DNA of 64,000 nucleotides. Source: Octopus vulgaris (Eukaryota). Position numbers and translations under genes: made by a program. The first letter of the stretch is position 1. The number at the start of each line of letters is the position of its first letter. The stretch is taken from positions 32,612,001-32,676,000 of the forward strand of contig OX597829.1 of assembly GCA_951406725.2 (NCBI GenBank), given 5' to 3'. The notes beneath the pieces were generated by a model. That model was not told the origin of the DNA, did no database searches, and worked only from the letters and a program-made list of their open reading frames with translations. This document shows positions 423 through 55,020 of the stretch, in pieces.

Positions 423-460
423 AACACAACGTTTCGGCTGATATAACCTCATCAGGTGTT
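423..460 (-). ncRNA. Minimal type I hammerhead ribozyme motif in a short repeat tail
   Basis: Minus strand reads aacac-CTGATGA-ggtt(atatc)agcc-GAAA-cgt-t-gtgtt. Stem I is aacac/gtgtt, stem II has 4 bp with one G-U, stem III is the palindrome ACGU, and the cleavage triplet is GUU. Confidence 0.6.
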
Positions 461-509
461 TTGGGGAAATTTCGAACCTGGATTCTCATTCCTAAGGTAT
501 TTTTCGATG

Positions 510-700
510 TTATTATTACTATTATTATTATTATTATTATTATTATTATTATTATTATTATTATTATTATTATTATTATTATTGTTAAAGTCACTGCCTG
601 AAATATATATATATATACATGTATATATAATATATGTGTATATATATGTATATGTAATATATATGTATATATATGTATATATAATATATGTATATATAAT
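510..700. repeat. (ATT)n followed by imperfect (TA)n microsatellite
   Basis: Read directly from the sequence. Confidence 0.95.
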
Positions 701-849
701 TTCACAAATAGGCAGATCCGTTTATCGGATCAACTGGAACCTTCTTCGTAACCGACTCGCTTTTGCATATATTCTTTTATTCTTTTACGGGTTCCAGCCA
801 GAGGCTAGGGCCATGCTGGAGCACCGCCTCTCAGTGTTTTTTGAGTTCC

Positions 850-2760
850 CTTTCAGTATTACTTTTGGTGAAGAAGCGAGTTGGATGAAGCTACTCTTCT
901 TTCTGCTTCCTGTCGTAATGTGGGCTCATCTGGGATTTCAGACAGAAATTTGTCCAGGTGATGTTTGAACGTTTCCACATCTACACTTTGCAGATCTCTT
1001 AGATTCCTAGACAGAATGTTAAACAGTTGTGGTTCCGTGAAAAACACGCTGTTGCAATACTGGGTCCTTATCTGAAATGAAGAAGACAGTATATTTGGTA
1101 TTATGCAGTACCGTTCACTTCAATGGTTGGTATAGCTTTTAATTCCAAAGTTAGGAGCTAGATCTTTCAGGATCTTTCATATGCATACCACTGCAGACTC
1201 TTCTCGCCTTCTCCCCAAGTAGAGATTCAGTCCTTGTAGCCTCTCCTAGGAGCTCATCTGTTTCACCGAGTCAGTCTTCTTTGTGTAATGGCACTGGATT
1301 GCCTCAAGTTCCGCCACCACAGTTGAGAGCAATAATCCAGACGACCGAGGACAGATGTCCTCCATAGAAGTAGCAAGGTATCCTTATTTCTGGTTCTGAA
1401 TGATCTAAGGATCTATCCAGCTAATTGCCTGCACAGTGTTGCCTTCCTGATAATATGCACATGGAATGTTGCATTACTGCTCATGTGGATTCTCAGGTCA
1501 CTTAATGATTCTACCTGTAAGACTGCACTATTCTCTTGTCTTATGTATTCCAATTGTAGTCTGTTTGTGGGCCGATAGCGGAGTGCATGAAGCTTATCAG
1601 CATTGAACTGCATCAGCCCATTTACATTTTACATGCAGATTATTTTGCTGTTTTACTATGTTATCAGGGTCCTTGACCGCCTGAGATACTTTTGTATCAT
1701 CAGCGTAGCTGGTGAGAGTGGCTTACTGTACCACTGACGGCATGTCTGAGAGAGCCACTACAAACAGTAGTGGTCCCAGTACAGTTCCCCAGAGAGAGAG
1801 AGCGTTTTTTGGCTGCAACTGCCTGATTTCTGTTCTTTAAGTCGTGCAGCTACCCTCTCAGTTTTCCAGTGATACCAAGGTTGCGTAGTTTATGGCATAT
1901 CATCTCAACTTTATCGAAGGCCTTGGCAAAGTCGAGATACATCACATCCACATTTCAGTGGCTGAGCTGTTATTTCAGTACCCAATCATAATGTTGTAGC
2001 AGCTTTGTGAGACAGCTCCTCCCTGAGCAGAAACCATGCTGTGTGTTTGTGCGCAAGTTATTCGCTTCTTAGAATACGTTCCATGACCTTGCCAACATGT
2101 GAAGTCAGAGAGATAGGTCTGTAAGTTTTAGCATCTGCTCTGCTTCCTCCTTTATAGACAGGGCATATGATACCCTCTTTTAACAGTTTGGGAAGTTTTC
2201 CACAGGCAAGGAAACTCTGTAAAAGTATCTGCAGTGGTTTTGCGAGAGCTTTCAAGTATGTTTTTAGGAGAACAGACAGAAATCCATTCGGGTCCGTTGC
2301 TGAGTTTGAGCTCATCTCATCAATGGCCGATAATACATCTTCCTCTTTATATCGATGTAATCGATAGTTGCCTTTTCCCCATGTAAGTCAGCAGTGTGGA
2401 AGAACTCTTTAGGCTCACCTACTTACCAGTTTTCAACAGAAGAGATGAAGACACTCTGGAACACTCTTGGGGCCTGCAGTTAGTAAGCCATCTTCTTCAA
2501 ACAGTGGCCTATATTGTACAGCACTAAAGTAGACGCTTTCTTGAACTTGTAGAAGGCTTTAGGCTCTATTTTTATATCTTCCACCACCCTGATTTCTCTT
2601 TCTACCGTTTCCTTTCCATGGGAGAATTTGAGTTTATTTTCGATCTCTAAAAGTCTCTCTTCTTGGAGGGATTTCTCGCTGCTAATAAGTTGTTTATTTA
2701 AGCGATTGGAGATCTTTATTCTTTGTCTCATAAGGACTCTCCAGTTTCGAGGAATGATGT
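850..2760 (-). mobile_element. Decayed Jockey/CR1-group LINE, RT and 3' region
   Basis: Minus-strand motifs YRPISLTSHVGKVMERI, QHGF (~2035), YLDFAKAFDKV (~1910-1940), GTVLGPLLF (~1770), YADDTKVS (~1690) and FKHHLDKFLSEIPDEP. Many stops and frameshifts. Confidence 0.9.
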
Positions 2761-2861
2761 CTGTGTATAAATAATATGGATATATAAATTTATATAAATA
2801 CATAAAATTGAATTAGTTAAACGACAATAGGGCACATGTATATTTGTGCATACATACATGT

Positions 2862-2943
2862 ATGTGTGTGTTTGTGTGTGTGTGTGTGTGTGTGTGTGTG
2901 TGTGTGTGTGTGTGTGTGTGTGTGTGTGTGTGTGTGTGTGTGT
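2862..2943. repeat. (GT)n microsatellite
   Basis: Read directly from the sequence. Confidence 0.95.
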
Positions 2944-51852: not shown

Positions 51853-52745
51853 AAAGTGGAAGTATACAAAAAGGAACGCTGTTTTTCATCCTGCTGTTAG
51901 CTTTGTTTCATTTTTTAAAAAATTAAAAATTTATTTTATAATTTATTATTGTTTATATTTTGAATTGCATATATATATGGAGGCGGGGCACCAGAATCTT
52001 TTAAGAGCTTAAGGCCTCTATGGATCTTAATCCAACCCTGGCGTTACCCCCCACCTCCCAGCATGGCCGCAGTCCAATAATTGAGAGAAGATAAGAAAAA
52101 TGTGTGTGTGTGCATGTGTAAATATATTTGTATGTGAGCGCGTGCGTAAATGCACACACACTCTACCTTCTGTCTTCATGTAAATCCTTCTACCTATTCC
52201 TCTTCACCACAATTACTCTCCCTACTGCATTCTCTCCCTCTTCGCCTTCCGTTTATTTATCAACTCATTTCTTTCCACATCATGTCTTTCGCAGTTGTTC
52301 CAAATCTTTGATATTTTCTACTCTTTCCCTCATTCATATCTCTATCTATCTATCTATCTATCTATCTATCTATCTCTTTCTCTCTCTTATTCACATATGC
52401 CCTTTCCGTTATCTTCCCGTTCGCTATCTAGCATAGTCGTATGCATCTATCAAGTTATTTATATCTGTCTTTCTATTCACATGCACACACATACGCACAC
52501 ACATATATGTGCGTATGCATGTGTGTGCATGTGTGTACATGTGAGCATGTGTGTGTGTGTGTGTGTGCATACCTTAAGTATTTGCAGTCATTTATGTTGT
52601 ATTTCTGGTCCGTGAACTAGCGGTTCGACAGTGAACAACTGATGAATTAAGTAAGAGACTGGCTATGTGCAAAATTCTAGAGTAATTATAATGCAGAAAG
52701 GAAACGATGATTTTTCTTTTAATAAACTAAAGAAAAAACATCGAT

Positions 52746-53170
52746 AGGAGTGGCTGTGTGGTAAGTAGCTTGTCTACCAACCACATGGTTCCGGGTTCAG
52801 TCATACTGCGTGGCACCTTGGGAAAGTGTCTTCTACTATAGCCTCGGGCCGACCAAAGCCTTGTGAGTGGATTTGGTAGACGGAAACTGAAAGAAGCCCG
52901 TTGTATATATGTATATATATATATATATATATATATATATATATATATATATATATATATATATATGCGTGTGTGTGTTTGTCCCCTAGCATTGCTTGAC
53001 AACCGATGCTGGTGTGTTTACGTTACTTAGCGGTTCGGCAAGGGAGACCGATAGAATAAGTACTGGGCTTACAAAAGAATAAGTCCCGGGGTCAATTTGC
53101 TCGACTAAAGGCGGTGCTCCAGCATGGCCGCAGTCAAAATGACTGAAACAAGAAAAAGAGTAAAAAGAGT
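52746..53170 (+). mobile_element. SINE family A, near full length
   Basis: tRNA-like head, internal (TA)n and an aaaagagt tail. Confidence 0.92.
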
Positions 53171-54404
53171 ATATAGTACATTGTGCTTTTGTTAAATTAT
53201 ACAAAGCGGTAGTGGGTGCATTTATATCGCCACCGGCGTCACCAAAAGTGAACAAATCAACGTTAAAGGCGCGCATTGCAAGGATCTTTTAGATGTTGAT
53301 TGATGAGGAACTAGCTACGGAGTTTCTGTATGTTATGTCTTCGTAATATTTTCCGTTTGTATTCTAGTTAAATTTTTGAAATATTTATGTGTACGCTACT
53401 CACTCCTGTTTTGTTCTTTTTTACTCACTTATTTCTGTCTATTTCTGTCTCTTCATCCTTCTTTGTCTCTCTTTTGCCTTTTTCCCTCTCTCTTTTTCTC
53501 TCTTTCCCTCCCTAATACTCTATTTCTACTTCTTTTGTTCTAACTTTCTCTCTGTCCTCTTATTTTAACAGTCTTACAGGGAATTTTCATCTTTCTTTTC
53601 GTTACCCCATATTTGTCTGTCTTGCGGCCGCACGGCTGTTTTTGTTGTATTTGTATAATTTATTTTGTCCTGTTTGTTTTCGTCATTGTCTTGTACGTTC
53701 GTTGGTTATTCCACCAAAAGTGAACAATATCAACGTTAAAGGAGCGAAATTGTAATGGTCTTTTGGACGTTGACTGATGAGGAATTGGCTACGAATTTTG
53801 TTTGTTATGTTTTTGCAAAATTTTTGAAATATACATACATACATACATACATACATACATACATACATACATACATACATACATACATATATATATATAT
53901 ATATATATATATATATATATATATATATATATATATATATATATATATAAAACAGCTTTATTCCCGCGCAGAAAAGACTATAGGAGAGTTGGTTTTCAGT
54001 GTTTAAAAAGCATCTTAAAACGAATTGTTTTAAATTATTTTAACAAATTTATCAAATCGTGTGTGTATGTGTATATATGTGTGTGTGTGCGTGTATGTGT
54101 GGTCGAATATCAAAACGAAGAGGGATTAATAAGAGGTTAAGAGATTAGTTATCCAGTTCACTACTACGAGAAGGATATTTTTCATCCGATCGATCGATTA
54201 ATGAAATAATACACACACGGGGGAAACTGAAAGAAGCCCGTCGTATATGTGTGTGTGTCTATGTGTGTGTGTATACACATATATGTATATATAAGTATGC
54301 ATGTATGTATATATATATATATATCAATAATACAGTGATTGTTTCTTGTCAGGAACAAAAAGATTAATAGAACTGCTATAGAAGTGCTCTATTGAAAGAG
54401 ACAA

Positions 54405-54813
54405 ATATATCAAACTAAGGTTATAGAACAAACAAATGCAAGGTCATCCGCATAACATTTCATAATTCGAACATTTAATCATAGAATATACATATAAACA
54501 TCCCGCAAGATGGAACGTAATTCATCTGTACAAGCATATAAGCATATAATAAGGTGCGAGAAAAAAGTTCATCACGGTTTAGAGTTAATACTTTAACGAT
54601 TCATATATATTTTTCTGAATCGTTAAAGTATTAACTCTAAACCGTGATGAACTTTTTCTCGCACCTTATTATATGCTTATATGCTTGTACAGATGAATTA
54701 CGTTCCATCTTGCGGGATGTTTATATGCATATTCTATGATTAAATGTTCGAATTATGAAATTTTATGCGGATGACCTTGCATTTGTTTGTTCTATAACCT
54801 TAGTTTGATATAT
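54405..54813. repeat. Near-perfect long inverted repeat with ~199-bp arms and a 12-nt spacer
   Basis: Arms at 54405-54603 and 54616-54813, with two substitutions and one indel by eye. Confidence 0.97.
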
Positions 54814-54935
54814 ATATATATATACATACATACATACATATATATACATACATATATATATATATATATATATATATATATATATATATATATATATATA
54901 TATATCAAAAGAAAAACAGGATGCAAAGGATTTTT

Positions 54936-55020
54936 CGGTACATATGTTTCTGGCTTTATTGAATAATTTATATCAATGCATAATTGATATAACATGTAGG
55001 TCAACAGCCTTCTTCAGCCG
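54936..55020 (-). ncRNA. Type I hammerhead ribozyme motif adjacent to a Penelope-like RT
   Basis: Minus strand reads cgg-CTGAAGA-aggct...agcca-GAAA-catatg-TA-ccg. Stem III is the palindrome acatatgt and the cleavage triplet is GUA. Confidence 0.65.

What the first reader, a model, noticed from the sequence alone, without database searches (positions are those of the whole stretch)
423..55020. Dispersed set of distinct hammerhead-bearing mini-elements beside microsatellites
Seen: four sequence-unrelated loci (423-460, 31144-31201, 51003-51075, 54936-55020) show CUGANGA...GAAA with type I stems, and decayed versions occur at 9931-9965 and 46203-46240. None lies in an intact coding element, and most are near (TA)n or (ATT)n. 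Known: minimal type I hammerheads with palindromic stem III occur in Penelope-like element repeats and in retrozymes. Inference: this genome hosts several non-autonomous ribozyme-carrying retroelement families, probably mobilised by Penelope RT, which may be undescribed in this lineage.
Basis: partly seen in the sequence, partly recalled or inferred. Interest (0 to 1): 0.75.

Follow-up and report, generated by a model that had tools for sequence, protein, structure and literature searches.

The report
Penelope retroelement ends with hammerhead ribozymes
The four self-cutting-RNA motifs are real and belong to a known kind of animal jumping gene: three are broken-off ends of protein-coding Penelope-like elements and one is a short non-coding tandem repeat that likely rides on them, and one element carries a tRNA-type start signal that likely lets RNA polymerase III read it.

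Summary
Observation confirmed: 8 type I hammerhead (HHR) candidates against 0.2 in shuffles; the four named loci belong to families with 905-3499 first-look candidates each. F1 (423-460), F3 (51003) and F4 (54936) are 5'-truncated 3' ends (pseudo-LTRs) of autonomous Penelope-like elements (PLEs): longer copies run collinearly into RT/GIY-YIG ORFs. Only F2 (31144) is non-autonomous, a 504-nt ORF-free head-to-tail unit with tandem HHRs, i.e. a non-LTR retrozyme. 9931 is not decayed but a family-wide U3-A8 variant; 46203 is decayed. All this is known biology (Cervera & de la Peña 2014, 2020). The unusual part is F1: its pseudo-LTR begins with a tRNA-like A/B-box head, 22 of 30 head-selected copies start 0-8 nt before it, and the 2.8-kb sense strand has no shared T4 run (P about 0.006). 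Short copies are likely Pol III SINE-like products, and the whole coding element may be Pol III-transcribed. Cleavage and transcription are untested. The scan reported the same reading earlier on other DNA of this genome.

The parts
369..603 (-). F1: 5'-truncated pseudo-LTR of a Penelope/Poseidon-type PLE: last ~13 nt of the tRNA-like head (590-602), internal (AAT)n (~509-587), ORF start ATG (489-487), HHR, 3' end in the first RT-start cluster
423..460 (-). F1 minimal type I HHR, palindromic stem III ACGU, U at position 17 (64 of 64 family copies), lying inside the first codons of the ORF; this copy has an 8-nt stem II deletion
31102..31349 (+). F2: partial copy of a 504-nt non-coding retrozyme unit, ending at the first of two fixed 3' sites and followed by (TA)n
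31144..31201 (+). F2 type I HHR with a near-palindromic 11-nt stem III
50985..51092 (+). F3: 5'-truncated 3' end of a Hydra-type PLE with its HHR (about 51005-51075)
54905..55109 (-). F4: 5'-truncated 3' end of a Hydra-type PLE with a long 3' UTR; HHR at about 54931-55021, 3' end in (TA)n
9880..10075 (-). F5: 3' end of a Neptune-type PLE with a U3-A8 variant HHR core (9931-9966) and a weak 2-bp stem I
46150..46300 (+). F6: decayed copy of an older minimal-HHR family; parent ORF not found
41738..41817 (+).
26628..26719 (+).

Best explanation
[quoted passage not shown] Shown: family structure, links to RT/GIY-YIG ORFs, two fixed 3' ends per family, ragged 5' ends, inverted partner copies, (TA)n junctions for F2-F4, the tandem F2 unit, and the head with its clustered 5' ends. 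Inferred from published PLE biochemistry: the PLE protein nicks AT-rich DNA and starts reverse transcription at one of two internal sites just downstream of the HHR. Most cDNAs stop early, leaving short HHR-bearing stubs, often with a fold-back inverted copy. The HHRs have self-complementary stem III and would cut only as dimers or with protein help; copies span the cut site, so uncut or re-ligated RNA would be the template. F2 would be cut to monomers, circularised and read more than once round. In F1, Pol III would start about 6 nt before the head; reverse transcription begun in the first repeat would run off that 5' end and give ~300-nt SINE-like copies.
For: F1: ORF end runs into the head on the same strand in 17 of 30 RT-selected loci; the repeat runs into the ORF start in 19 of 30 N-terminus-selected loci; the reading frame opens 34 nt before the core and passes through it; Atlas look-alikes carry PF26215 and GIY-YIG. 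F3: GIY-YIG directly upstream in 4 of 30 loci, RT in L071/L076, L074, L089. F4: GIY-YIG collinear in L107, L138, L139, L151, L152. F3 and F4 show the CxCX5C, CxxC and CxH motifs given for the Hydra clade. F2: period 503-509 in 9 of 30 loci; two intact cores in tandem in 17 of 30 unit-selected loci, four of which are one array; longest open frame 68 codons; neighbouring units share 20 private substitutions against 2.5 expected, max 8 in 7360 permutations. Two 3'-end clusters in all four families; (TA)4+ at the junction in 29, 19 and 27 of 30 for F2, F3, F4, and 1 of 30 for F1. Head: 47-48 of 75-76 identities to this genome's tRNA-Ala/Arg genes, z 6-9; 14 of 24 head matches in HHR-selected loci start at -6..+1 and 1 runs upstream; 22 of 30 head-selected loci start at 0..-8.
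Against: No cleavage or promoter activity was tested. Within-family covariation is almost nil, as expected for neutrally decaying copies; compensatory changes were seen only in the 41738 family (5 pairs, 4 sequences) and one diverged F2 locus. The hammerhead fold is not the minimum-energy monomer fold for F1-F5. F2's autonomous partner was not found; 5 of its 60 loci have separate PLE fragments nearby. 2 of the 20 shared F2 substitutions are an alignment artefact (L163), and subfamily structure could add to the rest. 10 of the 22 clustered 5' ends have a fold-back copy at a short palindrome that could itself cause stops. ARAGORN and Rfam do not call the head a tRNA. Loci were the best-scoring hits, not random copies. 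Clade names rest on motifs, not a tree; Pfam named only one of seven pieces, below its cut-off.
Confidence: 0.85

Rival explanations
1. All loci are independent non-autonomous mini-element families mobilised by Penelope RT.
For: Most copies are short, lack coding sequence and sit at (TA)n. F2 is of this kind, and short F1 copies behave like a SINE.
Against: F1, F3, F4 and F5 continue collinearly into PLE ORFs, and F3 and F4 have ragged 5' ends with no defined mini-element boundary.
Confidence: 0.07
2. The whole autonomous F1 element, ORF included, is transcribed by Pol III from the tRNA-like head and translated without a normal cap. This extends the best explanation and is not exclusive of it.
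For: No T4+ site is shared by more than 3 of 27-40 copies. The majority state has 0 T4 runs in 2776 nt against 5.1 expected. Twelve other PLE ORF fragments have 41 in 8.8 kb; P 0.006 (composition), 0.007 (T3-to-T4 ratio), 0.0003 (scaled). The head lies directly upstream of the ORF start in tandem copies.
Against: G4 runs are also absent (about 3.3 expected). The test was chosen after seeing the head. No head-less Poseidon relative was available as control (one search found none). Kojima 2024 argues that Pol III processivity limits such elements. Translation of an uncapped RNA needs a further mechanism.
Confidence: 0.3
3. The head is a passenger SINE fragment and the 5'-end cluster comes from cDNA fold-back at the palindrome spanning the head's start, not from a transcription start.
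For: 10 of 22 clustered copies carry an inverted head immediately upstream. A and B boxes are no better conserved than other head positions among copies.
Against: 12 of the 20 loci without fold-back also start at 0..-8 (P 1e-4 at a 20% chance rate). The position fits a Pol III start about 14 nt before box A (general knowledge). The T4 depletion is unexplained.
Confidence: 0.15
4. F2 arrays arose by local DNA-level tandem duplication of a solo PLE repeat, not by reverse transcription of a circular or multimeric RNA.
For: Shared variants between neighbouring units fit local duplication equally well; Li et al. 2026 propose this route.
Against: Arrays of 1.2-2 units are dispersed over many chromosomes, begin at ragged points, end at the same two 3' sites in (TA)n and often carry inverted 5' parts, which points to insertion as more-than-unit cDNAs.
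Confidence: 0.15
5. The motifs are chance matches in AT-rich repetitive DNA.
For: Two of the eight scan hits (3769, 43444) have no family support and may be chance.
Against: 8 against 0.2 expected; cores intact in 28, 28, 18 and 29 of 30 family copies; different families keep the core with different pairing stems.
Confidence: 0.01

Closest known systems
Minimal type I HHRs of metazoan PLE pseudo-LTRs (Cervera & de la Peña 2014, PMC4209133; parts 1-2 of 4 read)
   Same: Dispersed single motifs from truncated PLEs, opposite-strand pairs 100-700 bp apart, unpaired base after position 9, palindromic stem III, many families per genome, U3-A8 core variant.
   Different: That paper's text as read reports no tRNA-like head in a pseudo-LTR; F2, F4 and 41738 have longer stems II and III than the minimal consensus.
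Poseidon_Ac of the green anole (Frangieh et al. 2024, PMC11167929; parts 1-2 of 4 read)
   Same: HHR overlapping the ORF start, two internal RT start sites giving two 3' ends, uncut RNA as template, AT-rich targets. F1 matches this anatomy.
   Different: No tRNA-derived head is described; the promoter is only said to lie in the pseudo-LTR.
Non-LTR retrozymes (Cervera & de la Peña 2020, PMC7229834, passages; Li et al. 2026, 10.64898/2026.07.22.740005, parts 1-3 of 5)
   Same: F2 is a non-coding head-to-tail unit with a type I HHR per unit, found as monomers to multimers.
   Different: 504 nt is above the 170-400 nt of the 2020 paper but within the 51-972 bp of the 2026 preprint; F2 shows PLE-type twin 3' ends and (TA)n targeting; circles not shown here.
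Hydra and Neptune PLE clades (Craig et al. 2021, PMC8557442; passages and section 11)
   Same: C-terminal GIY-YIG, clade motifs, HHRs, (TA)n insertion, inverted 5'-truncated partner copies (F3, F4, F5).
   Different: Assigned by motifs only; F4 has an unusually long (about 2.5 kb) 3' UTR.
Schistosome Sm-alpha/Sj-alpha SINE-like repeats (passages in PMC6765202) and TRIMp3 elements Cassandra, Helenus, Ajax (PMC10886601, passages)
   Same: A Pol III promoter next to an HHR (Sm-alpha), or a small-RNA-derived promoter inside a terminal repeat (TRIMp3).
   Different: All are short and non-autonomous; in F1 the head is part of the repeat of an autonomous, ORF-bearing PLE.

Membership tests
Type I hammerhead ribozyme | Conserved core CUGANGA / GAAA / UH | tested here: met
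   intact in 28, 28, 18, 29 of 30 copies of F1-F4 (hits selected for similarity)
Type I hammerhead ribozyme | Three pairing stems, open at stem I | tested here: met
   F4 has A.A at the base of stem II in 38 of 54 copies; F5 stem I has only 2 continuous pairs
Type I hammerhead ribozyme | Stem covariation | tested here: inconclusive
   Nearly none within F1-F5; 5 pairs in the 4-sequence 41738 alignment; one stem I pair in diverged F2 locus L293
Type I hammerhead ribozyme | Self-cleavage at NUH | not testable with these tools
   Needs a bench assay
Penelope-like element (F1, F3, F4, F5) | Single ORF with RT and C-terminal GIY-YIG joined to the repeat | tested here: met
   Atlas (a neighbouring Hydra-type ORF used as probe); for F5 only the endonuclease was seen
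Penelope-like element (F1, F3, F4, F5) | Partial tandem forming pseudo-LTRs | tested here: met
   Shown for F1 (repeat both after the ORF end and before the ORF start); not shown for F3-F5
Penelope-like element (F1, F3, F4, F5) | Inverted 5'-truncated partner copies and two 3' ends (tail) | tested here: met
Penelope-like element (F1, F3, F4, F5) | Placement in a named clade by RT phylogeny | not tested
   Motifs only
Non-LTR retrozyme (F2) | Non-coding head-to-tail unit with an HHR in two or more consecutive units | tested here: met
   17 of 30 unit-selected loci (14 of 27 after merging one array); longest open frame 68 codons
Non-LTR retrozyme (F2) | Abundant linear and circular monomer RNA | not testable with these tools
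   Only assembled contigs of runs not on record as RNA were available
Non-LTR retrozyme (F1, F3, F4) | Non-coding tandem unit | tested here: not met
   Upstream sequence is PLE ORF or 3' UTR, not a repeat of the unit
tRNA-derived SINE (short F1 copies) | tRNA-related head with boxes A and B at tRNA spacing | tested here: met
   collinear with tRNA genes from position 1, 47-48 of 75-76 identities; box motifs as quoted; source tRNA not identified (30 genes, few isotypes)
tRNA-derived SINE (short F1 copies) | Defined 5' end at the head | tested here: met
   22 of 30 at 0..-8; palindrome caveat
tRNA-derived SINE (short F1 copies) | Independent of, and only tail-sharing with, the autonomous partner | tested here: not met
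   The whole short element is the partner's own pseudo-LTR
tRNA-derived SINE (short F1 copies) | Transcription by RNA polymerase III | not testable with these tools
   Indirect signs only

The most novel reading that the evidence does not exclude
The F1 family is an autonomous, protein-coding Penelope-like retrotransposon transcribed end to end by RNA polymerase III from a captured tRNA promoter in its pseudo-LTR. Its 2.8-kb sense strand has been purged of Pol III terminators, and the same promoter spawns thousands of SINE-like short copies, so element and SINE are one sequence.
Probability: 0.3. Interest if true: 0.8.

Novelty: new variant of a known kind. Interest (0 to 1): 0.5.

Why it matters
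The dispersed hammerheads themselves are expected debris of PLE activity and add new family members only. Two things go further. F2 is a clean, young retrozyme whose copies carry PLE-type twin 3' ends, (TA)n targeting and inverted 5' parts, which is direct sequence support for the proposal that PLE proteins move retrozymes. F1 places a tRNA-type promoter in the repeat of an autonomous element. If Pol III reads the whole ORF, it would be an exception to the rule that coding retrotransposons use Pol II, would show one route by which a SINE is born from its own partner, and would make cap-independent translation and the role of the PLE hammerhead directly testable.

Tried and rejected
Rfam scan of the window: swamped by microsatellite matches, no hammerhead among the 150 rows shown of 393. 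Pfam on seven ORF pieces: one sub-threshold GIY-YIG match; PDB search: nothing relevant. ARAGORN on 16 F1 loci and Rfam on two: head not called a tRNA. Expression: no RNA holder listed; contigs of runs guessed to be RNA cover parts of F2 and F1, but contigs cannot show ends, strand or level, so nothing is concluded. Metagenome search for relatives of the F1 protein, wanted as a T-run control: none. My first idea that the F1 stop codon lies inside box A was wrong: the endonuclease frame stops about 29 nt before the head. The idea that the RT-like fragment at 55250-55850 is F4's parent was rejected: (TA)n separates them and it matches none of my PLE pieces. The idea that F1 targets (AAT)n was rejected: the run is internal, and other repeats have inserted into it. 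The rows for F3 and F4 used wrong spacings and were redone. The 1994 octopus SINE paper and the 2017 PLE-dimer paper were not held; only their titles were seen.
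Full report
Setting. The window lies on contig C16 of a 2.8-Gb animal genome. From size and repeat content I guess an octopus; this is unverified and was used only to choose literature. Counts of 'candidates' below are first-look numbers, not copy numbers, and fetched loci are the best-scoring hits, not a random sample.

Observation. The four named loci carry the hammerhead core with three pairing stems. My descriptor found 8 candidates in the window against a mean of 0.215 (max 3) in 200 block-wise dinucleotide shuffles. 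Each named locus is a repeat family: F1 (423-460) 3499 candidates, F2 (31144) 2283, F3 (51003) 905, F4 (54936) 1141. The core is intact in 28, 28, 18 and 29 of 30 copies. Stem III is self-complementary in every family (duplex energies -1.7 to -13.9 kcal/mol), and the hammerhead is not the best monomer fold for F1-F5, which fits the dimer model described for PLE hammerheads (PMC4209133). Covariation within families is almost absent.

The two 'decayed' loci. 9931 (F5, 1724 candidates) has UUGAAAA in 13 of the 14 copies that parsed, of 20. This is the U3-A8 variant reported for schistosome PLEs, so it is not decay, though its stem I is weak. A GIY-YIG domain with a CX4CxxC linker lies upstream on the same strand in L248, L250/251, L254, L257 and L260. 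46203 (F6, 43 candidates, 70-88% identity) is decayed relative to its family; no PLE ORF was found in its 20 loci.

F3 and F4 are PLE 3' ends. Copies share fixed 3' ends and have ragged 5' ends. In F3, 4 of 30 loci continue directly into a GIY-YIG C-terminus, and RT lies in L071/L076 (one genomic site), L074 and L089. In F4 the upstream sequence is a long 3' UTR that reaches a GIY-YIG end in L107, L138, L139, L151 and L152. Both show the CxCX5C linker and the CxxC/CxH motifs that Craig et al. give for the Hydra clade, which inserts into (TA)n. (TA)4+ lies at the 3' junction in 19 and 27 of 30 copies.

F2 is a retrozyme. Copies that extend upstream run into the element's own 3' part with a period of 503-509 nt (9 of 30 loci, two overlapping). 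A search with one unit gave 17 of 30 loci with two intact cores in tandem; four of these are one array of about 3.7 units. The unit has no open frame over 68 codons. No collinear PLE ORF was seen in 60 loci; 5 have separate PLE fragments beyond (TA)n or unrelated DNA. Ends fall at two sites (10 near unit position 212, 18 at 308-315, 2 between) and 29 of 30 abut (TA)n. In 14 tandem pairs, neighbours share 20 private substitutions against 2.5 expected (max 8 in 7360 permutations; 2 are an artefact of L163). This fits one template read more than once round, but also local duplication or subfamily structure. F2 meets the working definition of a non-LTR retrozyme; its partner is unidentified.

F1 is the pseudo-LTR of a Poseidon-type PLE with a tRNA-like head. 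An RT fragment beside one copy (L013) led to the parent. In 17 of 30 RT-selected loci the ORF end runs into a 73-nt head, followed in most by (AAT)n and the HHR part. In 19 of 30 N-terminus-selected loci the repeat runs straight into the ORF start. The frame opens 34 nt before the core and reads through it, much as in anole Poseidon. The 3' ends form two clusters, 16 at +124..150 and 14 at +166..177, and only 1 of 30 abuts (TA)n. The head aligns from position 1 with this genome's tRNA genes (47-48 of 75-76 identities, z 6-9; 30 genes of few isotypes) and keeps boxes A and B, but is not called a tRNA.

Evidence for a start site at the head. In loci chosen by the HHR part alone, 11 of 24 head matches begin at -6..-3, 3 at 0..+1, 9 inside the head and 1 upstream (the reference had two substitutions near -6, so flanks were also read by eye). 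In head-selected loci, 22 of 30 begin at 0..-8, 2 at -12 and -16, and 6 run into the ORF. Ten of the 22 carry a fold-back copy at a palindrome spanning the start, a possible non-promoter cause; 12 of the other 20 still cluster.

Terminator test. No T4+ site is shared by more than 3 of 27-40 copies (54 runs in 128 kb of overlapping alignments against about 295 in shuffles). The majority state has 0 T4 runs in 2776 nt against 5.1 expected, but also 0 G4 runs against about 3.3. Twelve other PLE ORF fragments have 41 T4 runs in 8.8 kb; P is 0.006, 0.007 or 0.0003 by three nulls. The test was post hoc and lacks a head-less sister family as control. It is suggestive, not decisive.

Mechanism. Shown: the anatomy above. 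Inferred from Frangieh et al.: the PLE protein nicks AT-rich DNA and starts reverse transcription at two internal sites downstream of the HHR, using uncut RNA. Early stops give the stubs in this window. F2 likely borrows this machinery through a circular or multimeric RNA. In F1, initiation in the first repeat would run off the RNA 5' end and produce the SINE-like class.

Comparison with what is known. A published octopus annotation lists 190 Penelope-like families and does not mention ribozymes in its text or supplement. Searches for a PLE with a tRNA or Pol III promoter found none; the nearest cases are schistosome SINE-like repeats and non-autonomous TRIMp3 elements. Repbase and the 1994 octopus SINE paper were not available, so the short F1 form may already have a name. 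After I had reached this reading, the scan's index showed three earlier AI reports with the same conclusions on other DNA of this genome; they are not independent support.

Verdict. A real feature, mostly ordinary PLE debris plus one retrozyme, with one unusual variant. Interest 0.5; new variant of a known kind.

Noticed in passing
window 41738-41817 (+): The best-formed hammerhead in the window: folds as a three-way junction as a monomer and shows compensatory changes in three other copies; parent element not traced.
   Followed up: partly
window 26628-26719 (+): Another repeated HHR family with a long stem II and palindromic stem III; 10 incidental matches in 1.14 Mb of fetched loci.
   Followed up: partly
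window 3769-3814 (+) and 43444-43531 (+): Descriptor hits without family support; 3769 has no copy in the fetched loci, and 43444 lies in the coding remnant of an LTR retroelement and is probably chance.
   Followed up: partly
window 55250-55850 (-): Broken RT-like frame with a DKG-type motif recalled as typical of PLEs; not matched by my PLE pieces and separated from F4 by (TA)n.
   Followed up: partly
window 45032-45169 (-): Short Hydra-type GIY-YIG fragment (E 1e-4), about 1 kb from F6 on the opposite strand; no link shown.
   Followed up: partly
window 54448-54810: Long near-perfect inverted repeat directly beside F4, read by eye; family not identified.
   Followed up: no
window 10199-11173, 11474-13136, 42851-44614, 59570-60698: Remnants that look like a mariner transposase, an RTE LINE, a Gypsy-type LTR element and a Dong/R4 LINE (labels from recall).
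   Followed up: no
L059:720, L063:1244, L093:1865/2016, L095:2329, L151:6930: At least five further unrelated type I HHR families turned up by chance in fetched loci.
   Followed up: no
L003, L016, L022, L023, L028, L221, L271: Other repeats, one a Dong/R4-like LINE end, sit inside the internal (AAT)n of F1 copies and separate head from HHR part.
   Followed up: partly
L152:1031-2716 (-): A 562-codon open RT plus GIY-YIG frame of another Hydra-type PLE, joined at (TA)n to an F4 3' UTR fragment.
   Followed up: partly
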